From Candidatus Heimdallarchaeum endolithica (GTDB taxonomy: Archaea > Asgardarchaeota > Heimdallarchaeia > Heimdallarchaeales > Heimdallarchaeaceae): a stretch of 64,000 nucleotides of DNA. The stretch spans positions 2,240,001 through 2,304,000 of the forward strand of contig CP084167.1 in NCBI GenBank assembly GCA_021513715.1, read 5' to 3'. Below are positions 13,844 to 48,422 of this stretch, in pieces (the stretch's first letter is position 1; each line of letters opens with the position of its first letter). The translations under genes and the position numbers were made by a program. The notes beneath the pieces were generated by a model. It had not been told where the DNA came from. It was given only the letters and a program-made list of their open reading frames with translations, and did not search any database.

Positions 13844-14059
13844 TCATTTTGTTTTAATAAAAGATGTAAATAAACCTTTTAATTGTTCCTTATTATTCCT
13901 TGATTTTTTTTCTATTTATAATGATTTCATTTAATGTTGATAGTATATCGTCAAAAATATAAATATTTTCAATGTTTAAGGAAACAAGAACCATTTTCCC
14001 AGTTATTTTGGAAAATCTCTCTCCTATGATTCTTACAAATTGTTCGTTTTTCATTCCAT

Positions 14060-15845
14060 AATTTACTTTTTGCGTAATTTTGCGAACATTAGGATAGAGA
14101 GTATGGATGAAAAAGAAAAAAAGGAAAAGAAGAGGAAAAAAGATGGAGAAGATAGTCAAAACTTTGAAAGTAAAAATAAAAAATGAAGTTTTGACGAGGA
14201 GAAAAAAGGAAAGATTAAGAAGAATAACAGGGAGAGACACAAGGATAATAGAAAATATGTAAAAATTATTCATCACAACAGAAGAAGACTGTGTATGAAA
14301 ACAAAGAAAGGAGAAATAAGAGTACATAGAGGAAAACTAGATGAACTAACATTGACAACATCAAGGCTAAAAAAAGTAGAAGAGAGACTGTTCCTCATGA
14401 CCTTAAAAAGATGTTCCCTTACTGTTCTCACGATGAGTTTCAAGAGTGTAGAGACATAGCAGTACAACTGTACGAGCAAGGATATAGACCTGAAGCCACT
14501 CGTCCTCCAAAAAAGAGACCCAGAAGACAACTAATCAATAAGAATAGGTTTATTCTTACTAATTTGCCAAAAGAGAAAAACAACTCCATTTCTCGTTGGT
14601 GGGTAGGAATAAGAGACTCATTAGACACGTGGAAAAGAAAGACAAGGTATCATCAACGATTATGGTTGCCTTTAGAGATGAGCACTTTTCATCAAAAAGA
14701 ATTGAAAAAAGGACAAATAAAAAGTTTAGAACTGAGATATAAACGTTCTACAAGTGAGTGGTGGGTGTATTTTCAATTAGAAGTTCTTCCTCCTTCTTCT
14801 TTTCCTTGTCCAGTTGATAATTCTTCTTCTCTTCCTCCAGCTGTACTGGGGATAGATCTAGGGATAAACATTCCTGCTGCAGGAGTGTTATTAACGCCCA
14901 AAAGGAAATTAACTATTAAAGAGATAAAATTCTGGCATACCAAACAGTGGAATAGAATCAATCATAGATATAAACTCAAGCTTTCCCGTCTTCAGAGGAA
15001 AGGGGCTTTAAATGACCAGTCGGGTAAAAAACACCAAATTTATCGTTTTCTTGGATATCTTCGTCGGAGATATAGAAACGTTAAACGGTCCTATATTCAC
15101 CAATTTGTAAGAGATGTTGTGCAGACGATAGAGACCTATGCTCAAATGTATGACTTTTTCGTCGTCGTAGGTTACCCCAAAAATGTTAGAAAAGGAAAAG
15201 GAAAAGAAAAAGGGAAAGAAAAAAGTACTCGTTATTTTCGTAGAAAACTTCACCAGTGGAATTATGCTCTTGTTCTTTCTCTTCTCCGTCGAGCACTTAT
15301 ACTTCGAGGTTTTGCTCCTCATCGTATTCTTATAATAGACGAAAGAGGAACATCTTCTCATTGTTCCCGTTGTGGAAAAGAAGTTTCTCGTCCCGTTAGA
15401 GGATTAGTACACTGTCCCTTTTGTAACTATACTTACCACTCTGATTTAACAGGGGCTAGAAATATTGCTCGTAAGTTCCTTAGTCATCTTTTTCGTCCCC
15501 GTGCTACAACTATTGCTGATTACTTTACTGGTCAAAAATTCAGTCTTACTCATTACACTGTTTGCCGAGGACTCAGCCATTGGTTGTAGTCCCAGTAGAC
15601 AAAAAGAAATAATTACTCTTATATTCAAGGGCTAGTTATTCTTTCATTTTTGTCTCTCGTGGAGTGAAGAAAAGAGCTTACAACTCTTTTTTTCTTTATG
15701 ATTCCCCCGATTCGTGTATGACGTCTGTCTTAATCTCCTTCTTCTTTCATTGTATGTTAGGATTAAGTTCTCAAGAAACTGACAATTATCTCTTATTGTT
15801 TTTTTCTTGAAAGACTGAGTTCGACAAACTTCGCAAAAAGTAAAT
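14060..15845 (+). mobile_element. TnpB-carrying element with terminal inverted repeats, CAT at both junctions, target CATG; no transposase
   Basis: ATTTACTTTTTGCG (14061-14074) is the reverse complement of 15832-15845, with imperfect extension to ~27 bp; CAT at 14057-59 and 15846-48. Confidence 0.9.
14107..15589 (+). CDS. tnpB: TnpB-family RNA-guided nuclease with rearranged RuvC-II; 5' part has two -1 frameshifts (~14255, ~14370); intact ORF 14411..15589
   Basis: GIDLG (RuvC-I), VVVGYP, IIDERGTSSHCSRCG, CPFC, HSDLTGARNI; upstream frames read MEKIVKTLKVKIK... Confidence 0.88.
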
Positions 15846-15848
15846 CAT
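15590..15848 (+). ncRNA. putative omegaRNA scaffold of the TnpB element
   Basis: Stacked hairpins (AGACAAAAA/TTTTTGTCT, AAAAGAG/CTCTTTT, CTTAATC/GATTAAG, TCAAGAAA/TTTCTTGA) between the tnpB stop and the right end; homologous to 27898-28081. Confidence 0.7.
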
Positions 15849-16017: not shown

Positions 16018-17030
16018 AAGCATGTCCAAAAATTAATTTTTATTGATATGGGGGTTTATGTCGGAATTATCACACATTTCCAGATTTTAGACTCCCACAA
16101 AGTAAGAAAATTCACAGTCATTAATGGACCTTTCCTTAAGAAACTGGTGAAAGTGGAACCGAGAGAAAGTAAGAGAGGGAGAAAGAGAATAGCAGAAAGG
16201 TGGGTAATATTAGCAATAGCAATCATTGCTAGAATAGAAGGGATAGCTTGGAGGAAGTTAGAAGAAAAGTTGTCTCTATGCGCTTTTTTGATAGAAGAGG
16301 GGTGGATGAGGAAGATTCCTTCTAAATCCACTTTTCATGCTGTGTGGAGAGCGACAGAAAGTAAAATCTTAGAGCAGTGGATAATAGAGTTGGGGAGAGA
16401 AATAGTGAGAAAAAAAGGGTTGAAAGCTATGTCGGTGGGCAGTTCAGGTTTTAAAATTCGTCAAGCTTCTGTTTTGCGTTTTCTCAAATGGTCAAGAGAG
16501 ACACTAAAGAAAACCTCCCAACTAAACTTTTCTGGAAGATACACCTTATAGTTGGTTTACCCTCCAGAGCTATAGTCTCTCTAGCTCATTCTGCTAGTAA
16601 CACTCACGATAGTAAAGTCTTCGGTTTGCTATGGCAGAAACTTCCTTCTGTACTCTTGAGACCTTTCTTGAGATTCTATGGTGACTGTGCCTACTGGATA
16701 GAAAATATCGTCGGTCTTCTTAGACAACATTCCTTTTTTCCCTGTTATTTGTTATTCCCCCAAAAAGTAATGTTCGTTATCCCTCTCCTCCTCTCTGACC
16801 AATAGTTCAAGCTCATCTTCTCTACCCTTGTCTCTATCGCCATAATCATCACCCCGAGTATCGTAGTACTATTGAACACGTCTTTGGTCTCCTCAAACTC
16901 TCTCTTCTCCCATCCTTGATCGTTTACCCTCCACCATCCTCTCTACTCTTTTTAGTTTTCTCCTCTGTTACAACTACCTTTTACTCCTTCGTACCGTTTA
17001 GTAGGCGAAAAAGAATTTTTGGACATGCTT
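16018..17030 (+). mobile_element. IS4/IS5-superfamily (DDE_Tnp_1-like) insertion sequence, degenerate copy
   Basis: 17-bp TIR AAGCATGTCCAAAAATT; 7-bp TSD TTTCTAG (16011-17, 17031-37). Confidence 0.92.
16048..17001 (+). pseudogene. frameshifted DDE transposase
   Basis: Fragments 16048..16551 and 16488..16805 match 47448..48392; first catalytic D changed to G (SVGSSG). Confidence 0.9.
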
Positions 17031-25900: not shown

Positions 25901-26353
25901 TAAACTTTCTTTTGATAGGTTGTATAAAGAACATTTTTTTGATTTTAGCATTATGGGTAAGTAACCAATAAATACTCTAGCTTGTTCCTTTGGAGTATCT
26001 ATCTCTCCTTCTGCTTCCCTTTTAATTGGAGTCATATATAAAAACATTCGAGATGCATAAGTCAAATTTCTGATTCTTGCTTCCATTGGATAAATTGTAC
26101 TTTGAGACCCATCTGCTTCACGAACAGTCGGTTCTTCAACTTCTATTTTATCTAATCGAATATAATAGTCACTGTCTTCAGGTTCAATGATTTTTATTTC
26201 TTCAAGAACTGATTGTAAACCGTGTTCAATAAAGGAATTGAAGCTATCGAGATGTTGCCTTACCAATCCAAGTTCGTCAAACATTCGATTTATGTAAACC
26301 CACCTATCATTGTTATTTTTTTGTGAGCTGCTATTCAATTTAGTTTTAGACAT
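22949..26353 (-). CDS. rpoB: DNA-directed RNA polymerase subunit B (Rpo2), unsplit
   Basis: GGYFIINGSE, ETPEG, GDKFASRHGQKG, GGLRFGEMERD, C-terminal Zn site. Confidence 0.98.
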   Translation of the reverse strand: MSKTKLNSSSQKNNNDRWVYINRMFDELGLVRQHLDSFNSFIEHGLQSVLEEIKIIEPEDSDYYIRLDKIEVEEPTVREADGSQSTIYPMEARIRNLTYASRMFLYMTPIKREAEGEIDTPKEQARVFIGYLPIMLKSKKCSLYNLSKESLIRNGEDPSDPGGYFIINGSERVIVTQEDLAPNRILIEDVSSKGNITSEAKVFSVIHGFRAPVTAEHTADGQLRVSFPSMPRKISLILLMRALGIERDDMIAMAISPTPKLRSRVMSILMREDSDIDSTESALDYIGKRVAVGQTKEYRINRAQQVLDKYLLPHLGSDEKSRIRKAFFLARMAQRLLELEAGIRPKDDKDHYANKRLKLAGDLLLMLYRVAFHALCRDIKYQLERVTVRGKKPNLKTAVRADLITERLRHALATGNWTGGKSGVSQLLDRTNYMSALSHLRRVVSPLSRSQPHFEARDLHPTHYGKICPNETPEGPNCGLVKNLALQAYISVGIDEKVVEQKLIKLLNLVPINYEEMTTPNSQGMDLLKDPQNTKVFLNGRFIGIAKDGWDFRNKLIENRRKGEFHHEVNVSFYEETNELIINCDAGRVRRPLIVVENGVPLTSKIPESKVAKITWSELIQMGVIEYVDAEEEENLLIALDEKGISKETTHMEITTSTILGICASLIPYPEHNRSDRNVYEAGMAKQALGVYAANFKYRVDTRAHILHYAQKPLVKTHGMDAIHFDNRPAGQNFVVAVLSYEGYNMEDALLINKASIERGLGRSTFYRTYEAEERKYPNGQEDTFEVPDDTVRGYKDVSQYVHLGEDGIIEPEIEVDGNRGEVLIGRTSPPRFLEEYTEFDVPPQNRRETSKAMRHGEKGISDMVILTDTNEGNKLVKVRVRSDRIPEIGDKFASRHGQKGVIGLIIPQEDMPFTENGIVPDIIINPHAVPSRMTVGMLMELLAGKAAAQRGKEIYATAFSEVSIKDLEDILETMGLHPLGREVMYDGKSGKKLEGTIFFGSVFYQKLHHLVQDKIHARARGPIQMLTRQPTEGRAREGGLRFGEMERDCLIGHGTSILLKERLLDESDKTEAFICSKCGFLAMHDKNKDRYHCPVCKEETTVSRVIISYAFKLLLQELMSLGIAPHIELEDIA

Positions 26354-26553
26354 TAAAACACCTATTTTATGAATTCATAAAAATTATTTCTCTTGTTTGT
26401 GAATTCTGTGTTGTAATAAAAAGCTGTTGTTTTTTGACATGTTTTGTAAAAAATATTTGAATACAAAGAATTAAAAAGCTATTGAAAAATATTCATAAAT
26501 ATAAAGCATATTGCACTAATTAAGTTACTTTGGTAATGCAAACTGATTTGTGA

Positions 26554-26997
26554 GTGAAAATGACTGGTAATGGAGTTAAACTTTCTATTGATGAAATGCA
26601 ATTTATTACAATTTATCAAGGCATTGTAAATATAAAGATAAGAGATTGTATAATAGAAGAGAGTGAAAATAAAGTTTTGTTTGTAGTTGAAGAAGGACAA
26701 GCTGGATTAGCTATAGGAAAAAGAGGAACAAATATAAACAAATTAAAGGAATTAATTGCTCGTGATGTGGAAATTATTGAATACTCAAGCAAACCATCCA
26801 TCTTCATAAAAAACTGTTTCCTTCCTATTATACCTAAAGACGTTTCTATTCAAAACAGAAAAAACGGTCGTGTAGCCGTTGTAACTGTAGATCAAAAGGA
26901 CATTGGCCTTGCAATAGGGCGTGATGGTCGTACAATAAAAAAGGTTAAGCAATTAGTTGCAAGACAGTTTGATATAGTTGATGTAGTAATAAAATAA
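26554..26997 (+). CDS. nusA: archaeal NusA (KH domains)
   Basis: Two 'GLAIGKRG / GLAIGRDG' KH motifs; 'VEIIEYS'. Confidence 0.93.
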   Translation: MKMTGNGVKLSIDEMQFITIYQGIVNIKIRDCIIEESENKVLFVVEEGQAGLAIGKRGTNINKLKELIARDVEIIEYSSKPSIFIKNCFLPIIPKDVSIQNRKNGRVAVVTVDQKDIGLAIGRDGRTIKKVKQLVARQFDIVDVVIK

Positions 26998-27018
26998 TAT
27001 TGGCGACTGAGTTTAAAA

Positions 27019-27426
27019 ATGATAGTTGATTTTGGGACAAGAAATAAAAAAATAAAAGCATTGTTCAAAATAATTAAAGAAGAAAAAATCTTTTCTGAAT
27101 CATTGGAAAATGAGGTAATAAGTTTATTTGGAGATCGAGGAGAAAAAGCAATAAAAATATTAAAAAATAAAAGATTGGTAAAACTAAAAATAAAATCTAA
27201 TCTCTGTTTTTGGATTGTAAAGGGAAAAAACAGTGATTATGTAATCATTGATACTCTCTATTGCGATTGTAGAGATTTCTATATGCGTATAATTAACAGG
27301 AATAATGATGAACCCTGTTACCATTTATTGGCTAAAATAATAGGTGAAAAATTAAACTTATATCAAGAACAAGAAATGGGTGAAATAGAATATAATTCAT
27401 TAATTTATGATCTTTATTATAAATAA
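27019..27426 (+). CDS. SWIM zinc-finger protein
   Basis: CDC...PCYH. Confidence 0.8.
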   Translation: MIVDFGTRNKKIKALFKIIKEEKIFSESLENEVISLFGDRGEKAIKILKNKRLVKLKIKSNLCFWIVKGKNSDYVIIDTLYCDCRDFYMRIINRNNDEPCYHLLAKIIGEKLNLYQEQEMGEIEYNSLIYDLYYK

Positions 27427-27631
27427 TAGAATTTTCTGGGTTAAATAAAAAAGTTGCCTTTATGCAATTTAAATGTTTTAAATGTTATAAACAGTCGGTT
27501 CTTATAATTAAGCTGCGTTTAATGTGTTTATGGCTTAAAATAAGCGTTCAAAATCAAGTCACTAATATTTTTGTATTATTTTAAAAATGGAAGTAGAATT
27601 GTTTTCTGACAAACCGCATTAACTTTTTTAT

Positions 27632-27748
27632 TGGTGGCTCGGGGGGGTTTCGATCCCCCGACCTCAAGATTTCTCCTCGCAAGCCTTAATCTAGCCCTTT
27701 AACATAAGATTATGAGTCTTGCGCTCTAGCCTGCTGAGCTACCGAGCC
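27632..27748 (-). tRNA. tRNA-Met(CAT), elongator type, 40-nt intron at 37/38 (27671-27710), CCA encoded
   Basis: GGCTCGG/CCGAGCC acceptor; CAAGA-CTCATA^A-TCTTG; Ile2 identity not excluded. Confidence 0.85.
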
Positions 27749-27897
27749 TATAGGTTTGTAATTTTCCTTTTTGTAATTTTTCATATTATTGTATATTTAT
27801 TTCTTTTGTTATGTTGGATTTTTTGTAAAAAGTGAAAGAAGATAGTTGTTTTTTATAACTTTAGAGATTTTTTGATATACACTATATTTTATGTGCT

Positions 27898-28081
27898 GTG
27901 GAGTGAAGGTGAAAAAAGGAGATTTTCTTTTTCTTCCTTCTTTATAATTCACACGATTCGTGTATAGAGTCTGTCTCATTTTCTTCTTTTATGTAGGTGT
28001 GGTTGAGATCTCAAGCACTAAACTTTTCTTTTCCCTCTTGAAAGACAGAATGTAAAAAACTTATGAGAAAAAGTAAATCAT
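27898..28081 (+). ncRNA. orphan omegaRNA-like / element right-end copy without tnpB
   Basis: Colinear blocks shared with 15659-15848: GTGGAGTGAAG, CGATTCGTGTAT, GTCTGTCT, TCTCAAG, TCTTGAAAGAC, AAAAAGTAAATCAT. Confidence 0.75.
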
Positions 28082-28119
28082 AAATAAAAAATAATATAAA
28101 GCATATTTTTTAATCCACT

Positions 28120-28320
28120 TTGAAAGCAATGAGTCGAAGACAAACTAAAAGAAAAAGTCGTGATACTAGTCCAATGCCTGCAACAGGAGCAGGATTAATG
28201 CGTTATTATGATGAGGACTTACCTGGTGTTAAAGTAGGACCTTGGTATGTAATCGCTTTTGCATTAATATTAATTGTAGCAGTTTTTATGGGTAACATCT
28301 TCACTCCAAATTTAAGTTAG
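28120..28320 (+). CDS. secG: preprotein translocase subunit Sec61beta
   Basis: 'GAGLMRYYDED..GVKVGP' plus a single C-terminal TM. Confidence 0.9.
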   Translation: MKAMSRRQTKRKSRDTSPMPATGAGLMRYYDEDLPGVKVGPWYVIAFALILIVAVFMGNIFTPNLS

Positions 28321-28436
28321 AGGTTATTAAACTCTCTTTTACATTTTAATTCAGTAAAGTATCTTATGAGGAAGATAAAAAAGGTTTTTTCATCAATAAG
28401 TTAAAAAATGGAGAGAATAATTGTTTACTAATCAAA

Positions 28437-28916
28437 ATGACAAAAGCGATAGTAAAAACTAATAAGGGAACATTTGAAATTGAATTTTATGATAAGCAGA
28501 CTCCAAATACTACCAAAAATTTTGTAATGCTAGCAAAAAAAGGATTTTATAATGGAGTTAAATTTCACAGGGTGATACCTGATTTTGTTGTCCAGGGTGG
28601 TGACCCTACAGGAACAGGTCGAGGGGGACCTGGTTACAAATTTGCTGATGAGTTAAATAATGATGTCCAACATCATGATTTAGGCGCTGTTTCTATGGCA
28701 AATGCGGGACCCAATACAAACGGTTCACAGTTTTTTATTGTTTTAAATCCAAAAAACTGTAAACATCTAGATGGTAAACATACTGTTTTTGGAAGAGTAA
28801 TAAAAGGAATTGATGTAGTAAATACAATAGTTCAAGGTGATACGATGCTAGAAGTTTCTATTGTTGAGGAGTCAGATATAATAAAAAACCATGAATTTCA
28901 GAAATTACCAATTTAA
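28437..28916 (+). CDS. cyclophilin-type peptidyl-prolyl isomerase
   Basis: [40 protein letters not shown]. Confidence 0.97.
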
Positions 28917-47367: not shown

Positions 47368-47418
47368 TAAAAAAGATTAATCTTTCATTACAGTATTTAC
47401 AACTATATGATTTATAAT

Positions 47419-48422
47419 AAGCATGTCCAAAAATTCTTTTTCACCAACTAAACGGTCCGAAGGAGTAAAAGGTAGTTGTAACAGAGAAGAGAACTGTACA
47501 AGGTAGAGAGAATGGTGGAGGGTAAACGATCAAGGATTGGGGGAAGAGAGAGTTTAAGGAGACCAAAGACGTGTTCAATACTACTACGATACTCGGGATG
47601 ATGATTACGACGATACAGACCAGGGTAGAGACGATGAGCTTGAACTATTGGTCCGAGGGGAGGAGGAGAGGGATAACGAGCATTACTTTTTGGGGGAATA
47701 ACAGGGAAAAAGGAATGTTGGCTAAGAAGTCCAACGATATTTTCTGTCCAGTAGGCACAGTCTCCATAAAATCGCAAGAAAGGTCTCAAGAGTGCAGAAG
47801 GAAGTTTCTGCCAGAGTAAACCGAAGACTTTACTATCGTGAGTGTTACTAGCAGAATGAGCGAGAGAGACTATAGCTCGAGAGGGTAAACCAACTATAAG
47901 GTGTATCTTCCAGAAAAGTTTAGAGGTTTTCTTTAGTGTCCCTCTTGACCATTTGAGAAAACGCCAAACAGAAGCTTGACGGATTTTAAACCCTGAACTA
48001 TCCACTGCCATAGCTTTCAAGCCTTTTTTCCTCACTATTTCCCTACCTAAATCTATTATCCACTGCTCTAAGATTTTACTTTCTGTCGCTCTCCACACTG
48101 CATGAAAAGTAGATTTAGAAGGAATCTTCTTCATCCACCCCTCTTCTATCAAAAAATCGCATAAAGACAACTTTTCCTCTAACTTCCTCCAAGCTATCCC
48201 TTCTATTCTAGCAATGATTGCTAAAGCCAGTATCACCCATCTTTCTGCTATTCTCTTTCTCCCTCTCTTGCTTTCTCTCGGTTCCTCTTTCACCAGTTTC
48301 TTAAGGAAAGGTTCATTAATGATTATGAATTCTCTTGCTTTGTGGGGGTCTATGATCTGAAAGAAATTCATACTTCCGACATAAACCCCCACATTAATAA
48401 AAATTAATTTTTGGACATGCTT
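47419..48422 (-). mobile_element. IS4/IS5-superfamily insertion sequence, intact copy
   Basis: Same 17-bp TIR as 16018-17030; no matching TSD. Confidence 0.92.
47448..48392 (-). CDS. DDE transposase
   Basis: AVDSSG, HDS, YGDCAY, RSSIEHVFGLLK. Confidence 0.93.
   Translation of the reverse strand: MGVYVGSMNFFQIIDPHKAREFIIINEPFLKKLVKEEPRESKRGRKRIAERWVILALAIIARIEGIAWRKLEEKLSLCDFLIEEGWMKKIPSKSTFHAVWRATESKILEQWIIDLGREIVRKKGLKAMAVDSSGFKIRQASVWRFLKWSRGTLKKTSKLFWKIHLIVGLPSRAIVSLAHSASNTHDSKVFGLLWQKLPSALLRPFLRFYGDCAYWTENIVGLLSQHSFFPVIPPKSNARYPSPPPLGPIVQAHRLYPGLYRRNHHPEYRSSIEHVFGLLKLSLPPILDRLPSTILSTLYSSLLCYNYLLLLRTV

What the first reader, a model, noticed from the sequence alone, without database searches (positions are those of the whole stretch)
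27898..28101. Orphan omegaRNA-like copy 12 kb from tnpB, with a compensatory base change
Seen: six colinear blocks match 15659-15848, and homology stops right after AAAAAGTAAATCAT. Stems are kept while loops diverge: CTTAATC/GATTAAG becomes CTCATTT/GGTTGAG (T-A to C-G swap), TCAAG/CTTGA is conserved, and TCTGTCT/AGACAGA is perfect here. There is no tnpB; a weak left-end-like sequence sits at ~27760. Inference: a non-autonomous element or stand-alone guide-RNA gene that could load TnpB in trans with guide AAATAAAAAATAATATAAAG, which overlaps the likely sec61beta promoter region.
Basis: partly seen in the sequence, partly recalled or inferred. Interest (0 to 1): 0.8.

Follow-up and report, generated by a model that had tools for sequence, protein, structure and literature searches.

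The report
Decayed right end of TnpB element
The 185-bp stretch in front of the sec61beta gene of an Asgard archaeon is the leftover tail of a common TnpB jumping element that has lost its gene, its left end and the first third of its guide RNA, so it is most likely an ordinary decaying remnant and not a working stand-alone guide-RNA gene.

Summary
The homology is real, but this is one of 9 right-end remnants of a tnpB-only insertion family (12 full copies, 8 with intact ORFs) in a genome that is almost surely Ca. Heimdallarchaeum endolithica. H. aukensis has the empty site: the insert is only 27897-28081, and the '27760 left end' is host tRNA-promoter DNA. The omegaRNA scaffold is about 280 nt and starts inside tnpB; the orphan lacks its first ~90 nt and has no left end. 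The 'compensatory' C-G is the family majority (15/18), inherited rather than selected here. The orphan has a pseudoknot G-C break (this strain only), a damaged K-turn-like motif, 8-10 core G-C pairs against 13-17, and changes hit paired and unpaired invariant sites equally. The guide is simply flanking host DNA behind TCAT, probably not a TAM. Best reading: neutral remnant (0.8). The real guide-RNA-only mini-elements here are another family (18 copies; window 55243-55620) with both ends and a TATA box; the scan noted these before, here and in another Asgard genome, and they are a known kind (PATE-like).

The parts
27897..28081 (+). 5'-truncated right-end remnant of a family A tnpB element: last ~185 nt of a ~280-nt omegaRNA scaffold, ending in the AT core
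   Evidence: empty site in H. aukensis; family profile hit to positions 67-257 of 257
27944..27949 (+). 5' strand of the predicted pseudoknot; ATAATT here, ATGATT in all 23 full copies and in five Guaymas contigs of this locus
27963..27971 (+). K-turn-like bulge strand, damaged (ATGA changed to ATAGA); partner strand at 28044-28056 also changed (GAG to GAA, one C-G pair broken)
   Evidence: K-turn reading is inference from the motif
28068..28081 (+). right end, 3' strand of the pseudoknot (AATCAT) and AT core
28082..28101 (+). would-be guide = host DNA with the likely BRE/TATA of sec61beta
   Evidence: conserved in H. aukensis; no other close TAM-adjacent match in the genome
27635..27748 (-). 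host tRNA gene with CAT anticodon and intron; its upstream DNA (27749-27896) is what was read as a left end
   Evidence: Rfam
28129..28320 (+). host sec61beta gene
   Evidence: PF03911
14057..15848 (+). full-length family A tnpB-only element between CAT cores; tnpB frameshifted near 14251 and 14378; scaffold starts near 15569 inside the last codons
55243..55620 (+). family M guide-RNA-only mini-element (left end, TATA at 55374, RNA from 55401, right end); the real stand-alone omegaRNA cassette, for comparison

Best explanation
A family A tnpB-only element inserted at a C-AT-R site just upstream of the sec61beta promoter (target rule shown from empty sites; the insertion event itself inferred). 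A later deletion removed the left core, left end, promoter, tnpB and the 5' domain of the omegaRNA (about 1.65 kb), leaving the last 185 bp (shown by comparison). Without a left end it cannot excise, so the TAM-plus-guide target that its RNA would defend never forms (inferred from the TnpB homing model). It is now fixed in H. endolithica strains and drifting: it loses G-C pairs, the K-turn-like motif and, in this strain, a pseudoknot pair. It probably makes no functional guide RNA.
For: Empty site with no left end. 13 right-end remnants in the two genomes with 5' breakpoints spread 86-715 nt from the end, five of them inside the RNA core; an orthologous remnant has lost half the scaffold in H. 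aukensis. True mini-elements of this clade all start at the 5' hairpin, 68-96 nt before the pseudoknot strand, about 20-25 nt after a TATA box; the orphan starts 47 nt before it, against 129 nt in family A. 15 of 103 invariant columns changed, paired 15% and unpaired 14%; core G-C pairs 8-10 against 13-17. Stem branch 0.42 against a median end branch of 0.02. One broken pseudoknot pair cuts ISXfa1 TnpB activity >10^4-fold (PMC10711439). No TAM-adjacent target in the genome.
Against: The remnant is present in every H. endolithica-like contig that covers the site, from two basins, and the Guaymas allele keeps the pseudoknot and first stem intact. Strain divergence in it (4/185) is as low as in the flanking intergenic DNA (2.4-2.7%) and lower than fourfold sites of nearby genes (11-24%, but 0/27 in the adjacent gene), so constraint is not excluded. 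The deletion begins within 3 nt of the insertion junction and ends at a domain boundary, and unlike several other remnants it does not start at an internal AT. A TATA-like run lies about 37-44 nt upstream. Part of the long branch may be loop misalignment or an unsampled parent subfamily.
Confidence: 0.8

Rival explanations
1. A truncated but still usable trans-acting guide: transcribed from a host TATA-like box, loaded by one of the 8 intact family A TnpBs, and aimed at DNA like the sec61beta promoter.
For: Intact TnpBs with D, alternative E and D residues in the same genome; 3' two-thirds of the scaffold kept in order; Guaymas allele keeps the pseudoknot; stand-alone omegaRNAs work in trans in other OMEGA systems (PMC10691335).
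Against: 5' domain absent although kept in every true mini-element; K-turn-like motif and closing stem damaged in both alleles; own site has TCAT, not VCAT; no other target.
Confidence: 0.1
2. Kept for a cis role unrelated to TnpB: the hairpins and U-runs act as a spacer, terminator or insulator between the divergent tRNA(CAT) and sec61beta promoters.
For: Fixed in all strains seen, low strain divergence; sits directly upstream of the conserved sec61beta promoter.
Against: H. aukensis does without it; no terminator-like site found inside (bacterial-type scan only); fixation by drift or hitch-hiking suffices.
Confidence: 0.07
3. Direct RNA-templated insertion: a processed omegaRNA was copied into the cut site next to its guide, giving a clean insert of scaffold only.
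For: Formally a clean 182-bp insert between TATGTGC and CAT with no duplication.
Against: The insert does not start at the RNA's 5' end; breakpoints of other remnants are scattered and reach into tnpB; many start at internal AT sites, and nearby inversions between CATG sites point to DNA recombination.
Confidence: 0.03

Closest known systems
Stand-alone omegaRNAs and PATE-like protein-less IS200/IS605 derivatives (PMC10691335; Meers et al., 10.1101/2023.03.14.532601)
   Same: omegaRNA-type DNA with a right end and no nuclease, in a genome with intact TnpB.
   Different: Those keep both ends and are mobilised; the orphan has no left end, an incomplete scaffold and one fixed copy. Family M (55243-55620) is the true match to this kind.
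IS607-family elements and their reRNA (ISXfa1, PMC10711439; CboIStron, 10.1101/2023.11.20.567912)
   Same: Dinucleotide core on both sides and once in the empty site; core is part of the scaffold and pseudoknot; self end differs from the inferred TAM at one position (TCAT against VCAT).
   Different: Core is AT in CATG, not GG; ends are inverted repeats; no IS607 tnpA in either Heimdallarchaeum genome, and IS607 elements of relatives have unrelated ends.
IS1341-type tnpB-only elements
   Same: Parent family encodes TnpB alone and must be moved in trans.
   Different: Ends are not IS605-like hairpins; RuvC-II is rearranged (VVVGYP plus alternative E).
Cas1H-Asgard (aCas1-associated) TnpB groups (PMC10691335)
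   Same: Thorarchaeal relatives of this TnpB (33-35% identical) carry the GTTCACTCA motif described for that group; Heimdall relatives end in AACTCAT or AAATCAT.
   Different: No aCas1 or other shared neighbour seen beside any of ~65 loci; only CRISPR-type Cas1 hits in this genome were checked for CATG ends, none.
pro-Fanzor / Fanzor2* (PMC10711439)
   Same: Alternative RuvC-II glutamate six residues before the zinc finger; inverted ends with the duplicated core inside the scaffold.
   Different: RuvC-I is DLG, not DPG, so not a pro-Fanzor.

Membership tests
Stand-alone omegaRNA / PATE-like element (orphan 27897-28081) | Both element ends present | tested here: not met
   Only the right end; DNA upstream is shared with the empty site
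Stand-alone omegaRNA / PATE-like element (orphan 27897-28081) | Complete, structurally intact scaffold | tested here: not met
   5' domain missing; 5-7 of 36 core pairs broken (up to 3 may be alignment artefacts) against 0-3 in full copies
Stand-alone omegaRNA / PATE-like element (orphan 27897-28081) | Evidence of mobilisation (copies with the same boundaries) | tested here: not met
   No second copy with this 5' junction or sequence; other remnants 70-80% identical with other breakpoints
Stand-alone omegaRNA / PATE-like element (orphan 27897-28081) | Own promoter at the right distance | tested here: inconclusive
   Element promoter deleted; host TATA-like runs ~10 and ~40 nt upstream, not at the 20-27 nt spacing of true mini-elements
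Stand-alone omegaRNA / PATE-like element (orphan 27897-28081) | Expressed and loaded by TnpB in trans | not testable with these tools
IS607 (parent family A) | Insertion by a dinucleotide core, single copy in the empty site | tested here: met
   C-AT-R at both ends, one CAT in empty sites
IS607 (parent family A) | Serine-recombinase TnpA with N-terminal HTH, in cis or with matching ends | tested here: not met
   No NF033518 hit over cut-off in G000/G001; only two conserved host small serine recombinases; relatives' IS607 ends differ
IS200/IS605 (parent family A) | Y1 transposase, hairpin ends, no duplicated core | tested here: not met
   Inverted ends with AT core; the single Y1 gene belongs to an unrelated element and is absent from G001
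TnpB with rearranged RuvC-II | Canonical E replaced, alternative E six residues before the zinc finger, both D kept | tested here: met
   GIDLG, VVVGYP, E-x6-CxxC, HSD
pro-Fanzor | DPG at RuvC-I | tested here: not met
   DLG
Cas1H-Asgard TnpB group | aCas1 gene next to tnpB | tested here: not met
   No shared neighbour in the loci examined, flanks 1.5-3.5 kb; a divergent aCas1 elsewhere was not excluded
Stand-alone omegaRNA / PATE-like element (family M, 55243-55620) | Both ends, no ORF, full scaffold, many copies | tested here: met
   18 full copies in G000, at least 7 in G001; motifs match 3' ends of tnpB relatives

The most novel reading that the evidence does not exclude
The remnant was trimmed to a minimal, immobile omegaRNA that H. 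endolithica keeps as a host-promoter-driven trans guide (or TnpB decoy), letting family A TnpB bind near the sec61beta promoter without cutting; the pseudoknot break in strain PR6 would be a recent loss-of-function allele. This would be an early step of guide-RNA domestication in an Asgard archaeon.
Probability: 0.07. Interest if true: 0.65.

Novelty: new member of a known kind. Interest (0 to 1): 0.2.

Why it matters
As a decayed remnant it matters little. Its use is as a marker: together with empty sites in H. aukensis it fixes the target rule (C-AT-R, likely TAM VCAT), the pseudoknot and the true 5' end of the omegaRNA for an Asgard clade of rearranged-RuvC TnpBs, which makes that nuclease directly testable. 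The open question worth pursuing is not this locus but the family: three tnpB families and a gene-less guide-RNA family share CATG ends and move without any recognisable transposase in a closed genome.

Tried and rejected
Left end at ~27760: rejected, host DNA. The 15.6-kb element as parent or partner: rejected, other subfamily and frameshifted. The IS5-like element at 16020-17030 as mobiliser because its ends contain CATG: rejected, it has its own terminal repeats and 7-8 bp duplications. IS607 tnpA, Y1 tnpA and Cas1 as mobiliser: none with matching ends; the two host serine recombinases remain untested candidates. Rfam: no family covers the RNA. Viral copies of the element: none. No covariance model was built; structure was tested by pair counts, whose covariation cells mostly come from one subfamily of three sequences and so are weak by themselves. 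The aCas1 paper of Makarova et al. was not held.

Full report
Source. The window lies at 2,240,001-2,304,000 of a single 3,326,783-bp contig. Its sister genome G001 is Ca. Heimdallarchaeum aukensis PM71. The size and genus match Ca. H. endolithica PR6 (3.32 Mb, PMC8813620); I treat that identity as very likely.

Observation. 27897-28081 aligns with the non-coding 3' end of the tnpB element at 14057-15848 far above chance. But it is one of many. The family (called A here) has 12 full copies in this genome, 8 with intact 480-486 aa ORFs, and 9 right-end remnants; H. aukensis has 11 full copies and 4 remnants. The 12-kb neighbour is frameshifted near 14251 and 14378 and belongs to a different subfamily; the orphan falls nearest three H. 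aukensis copies, with weak support, on a stem of 0.42 changes per site against a median end branch of 0.02.

Boundaries. H. aukensis has both empty sites. For the 14-kb element the empty site has one CAT where the filled site has CAT on each side. All full copies read C-AT-[G...C]-AT-R with inverted ends; two other tnpB families and a 378-bp gene-less family share this AT core. For the orphan the empty site reads TATGTGC-CAC-AAATAAAA, the filled site TATGTGC-[182 bp]-CAT-AAATAAAA. So the insert has a right end and nothing else. The sequence at 27749-27896, including the supposed left end, is shared with the empty site and is the upstream region of a tRNA(CAT) gene on the minus strand.

The real omegaRNA. 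An alignment of 18 family A ends supports nine helices (97.7% of cells paired; covariation above all 500 shuffles, though mostly from one subfamily). That this is the RNA's 5' end is shown by natural mini-elements in related genera (G002, G006, G016, G042), where tnpB is deleted and a TATA box sits about 20-27 nt before the homologous hairpin. The family A scaffold is thus about 280 nt; the orphan lacks the first ~90 nt. A six-pair pseudoknot joins an internal strand to the very end, including the AT core. It is ATGATT/AATCAT in family A and ATGAGT/ACTCAT in family M and in relatives across the family, a change on both sides between clades. This parallels IS607 reRNAs, where the core is part of the scaffold and one broken pseudoknot pair lowers activity over 10^4-fold (PMC10711439). 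An ATGA/GAG motif between two stems looks like a K-turn (inference).

State of the orphan. In this strain the pseudoknot strand is ATAATT (G-C broken), the first stem has a G-A mismatch, the K-turn-like motif is changed on both strands, and CTCAACC has become CTCATTT. Core G-C pairs number 8, against 13-17 in full copies. Of columns invariant in 18 copies, 10/67 paired and 5/36 unpaired changed, so stems are not spared (a few of these are alignment artefacts in variable stems). It supports the structure of the family RNA, not selection on the orphan. One caution: five Guaymas contigs carry the same remnant with the pseudoknot G and the first stem intact, so those two lesions are recent. The missing 5' domain and the other lesions are shared. 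Strain divergence inside (4/185) equals that of flanking intergenic DNA, which neither shows nor excludes constraint.

How it arose. Thirteen right-end remnants have 5' breakpoints 86-715 nt from the end; five cut inside the RNA core, and an orthologous pair shows H. aukensis losing half a scaffold that this genome keeps. Several start at an internal CAT or AT, and inversions between CATG/AT sites occur next to family M copies, one in this window restoring a 262-aa ORF when undone. That points to a site-specific recombinase acting on AT cores, also within elements (inference). The orphan's junction has no AT, so an imprecise deletion starting at the left junction is the simplest reading. Whether the insertion is specific to H. 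endolithica or older, with clean excision and a CAT to CAC change in H. aukensis, cannot be told.

The guide. An omegaRNA guide is the right-flank DNA, so its overlap with the sec61beta promoter needs no explanation. The base before CAT at left junctions is never T in 14 full A/B elements (background 35%, p=0.002) and T once in 17 family M copies, while the right end reads TCAT. This suggests TAM VCAT with self-avoidance, as for CboTnpB; it could also be a recombinase preference. The orphan's guide then has no target: the only near matches behind CAT are itself and one four-mismatch A-rich site. With no left end the element cannot excise to create its target.

Comparison. The parent TnpB has a rearranged RuvC-II (VVVGYP, alternative E) with DLG, so it is not a pro-Fanzor. 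The clade is spread over Heimdallarchaeaceae and Thorarchaeota, always tnpB-only in the loci seen; the Thor relatives carry the GTTCACTCA motif of the aCas1-linked groups. It works like IS607 at the ends but fails membership for lack of tnpA. Stand-alone omegaRNAs and PATE-like elements are known. The orphan fails that test; family M passes it (18 full copies, one at 55243-55620). I was led to family M by an earlier scan note (e1-5512655), and earlier agents filed similar CATG mini-elements in another Asgard genome as PATE-like.

Verdict. Real but ordinary: a truncated, eroding right end of a common element. Interest 0.2.

Noticed in passing
window 55243-55620: Family M: 378-bp gene-less element with CATG ends, TATA box and a 220-nt omegaRNA-type RNA; 18 full copies here, at least 7 in H. 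aukensis, more in Guaymas metagenomes. No tnpB of its own subfamily was found in this genome, so which TnpB uses it is open.
   Followed up: partly
window 54719-55870: Amidotransferase-like gene split by the family M copy and a 163-bp inversion between two CATG sites; undoing both gives a 262-aa ORF. L085 shows a similar inversion at an internal AT.
   Followed up: yes
L160, L178, L190-L192, L194 (genus g2), L176, L185, L196 (genus g4): Independent mini-elements made of left end, tnpB promoter and the full ~285-nt omegaRNA with tnpB cleanly deleted; five in G002 alone.
   Followed up: partly
G000 316728-317450 and 405333-406082 (L055, L056): Two small (240, 249 aa) serine recombinases at orthologous sites in both species, with similar hits in most family genomes; untested candidates for the missing mobiliser.
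   Followed up: partly
G000 2688067, 2833124, 3218224: A third tnpB family with the canonical RuvC-II glutamate shares the CATG left end and AT core but ends in GTTGAT and has T before CAT in 3 of 3 copies, the reverse of families A, B and M.
   Followed up: partly
window 16020-17030 and 47413-48422: IS5-like DDE element, about 26 or more copies in the genome, terminal repeats starting AAGCATG, 7-8 bp duplications; the 16-kb copy is frameshifted.
   Followed up: yes
L237-L259 (Thorarchaeal tnpB loci): Upstream of tnpB a TATA box, a GAGTTCA...GAGTGAACTC unit and a second TATA box; downstream GTTCACTCA followed by variable DNA. Looks like a separately transcribed small RNA complementary to the downstream motif.
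   Followed up: no
G000 698717-698838: A ~122-bp repeat with more than 25 copies; probably the end of another IS family.
   Followed up: no
L046 (H. aukensis 26307-28776): Tandem duplication of the last ~700 bp of a family A element including right end and guide.
   Followed up: no
window 26473-26512: 40-nt stretch 75% like 28068-28107, in the rpoB/nusA intergenic region; probably shared promoter elements, preceded by TCAT, so not a likely target.
   Followed up: partly
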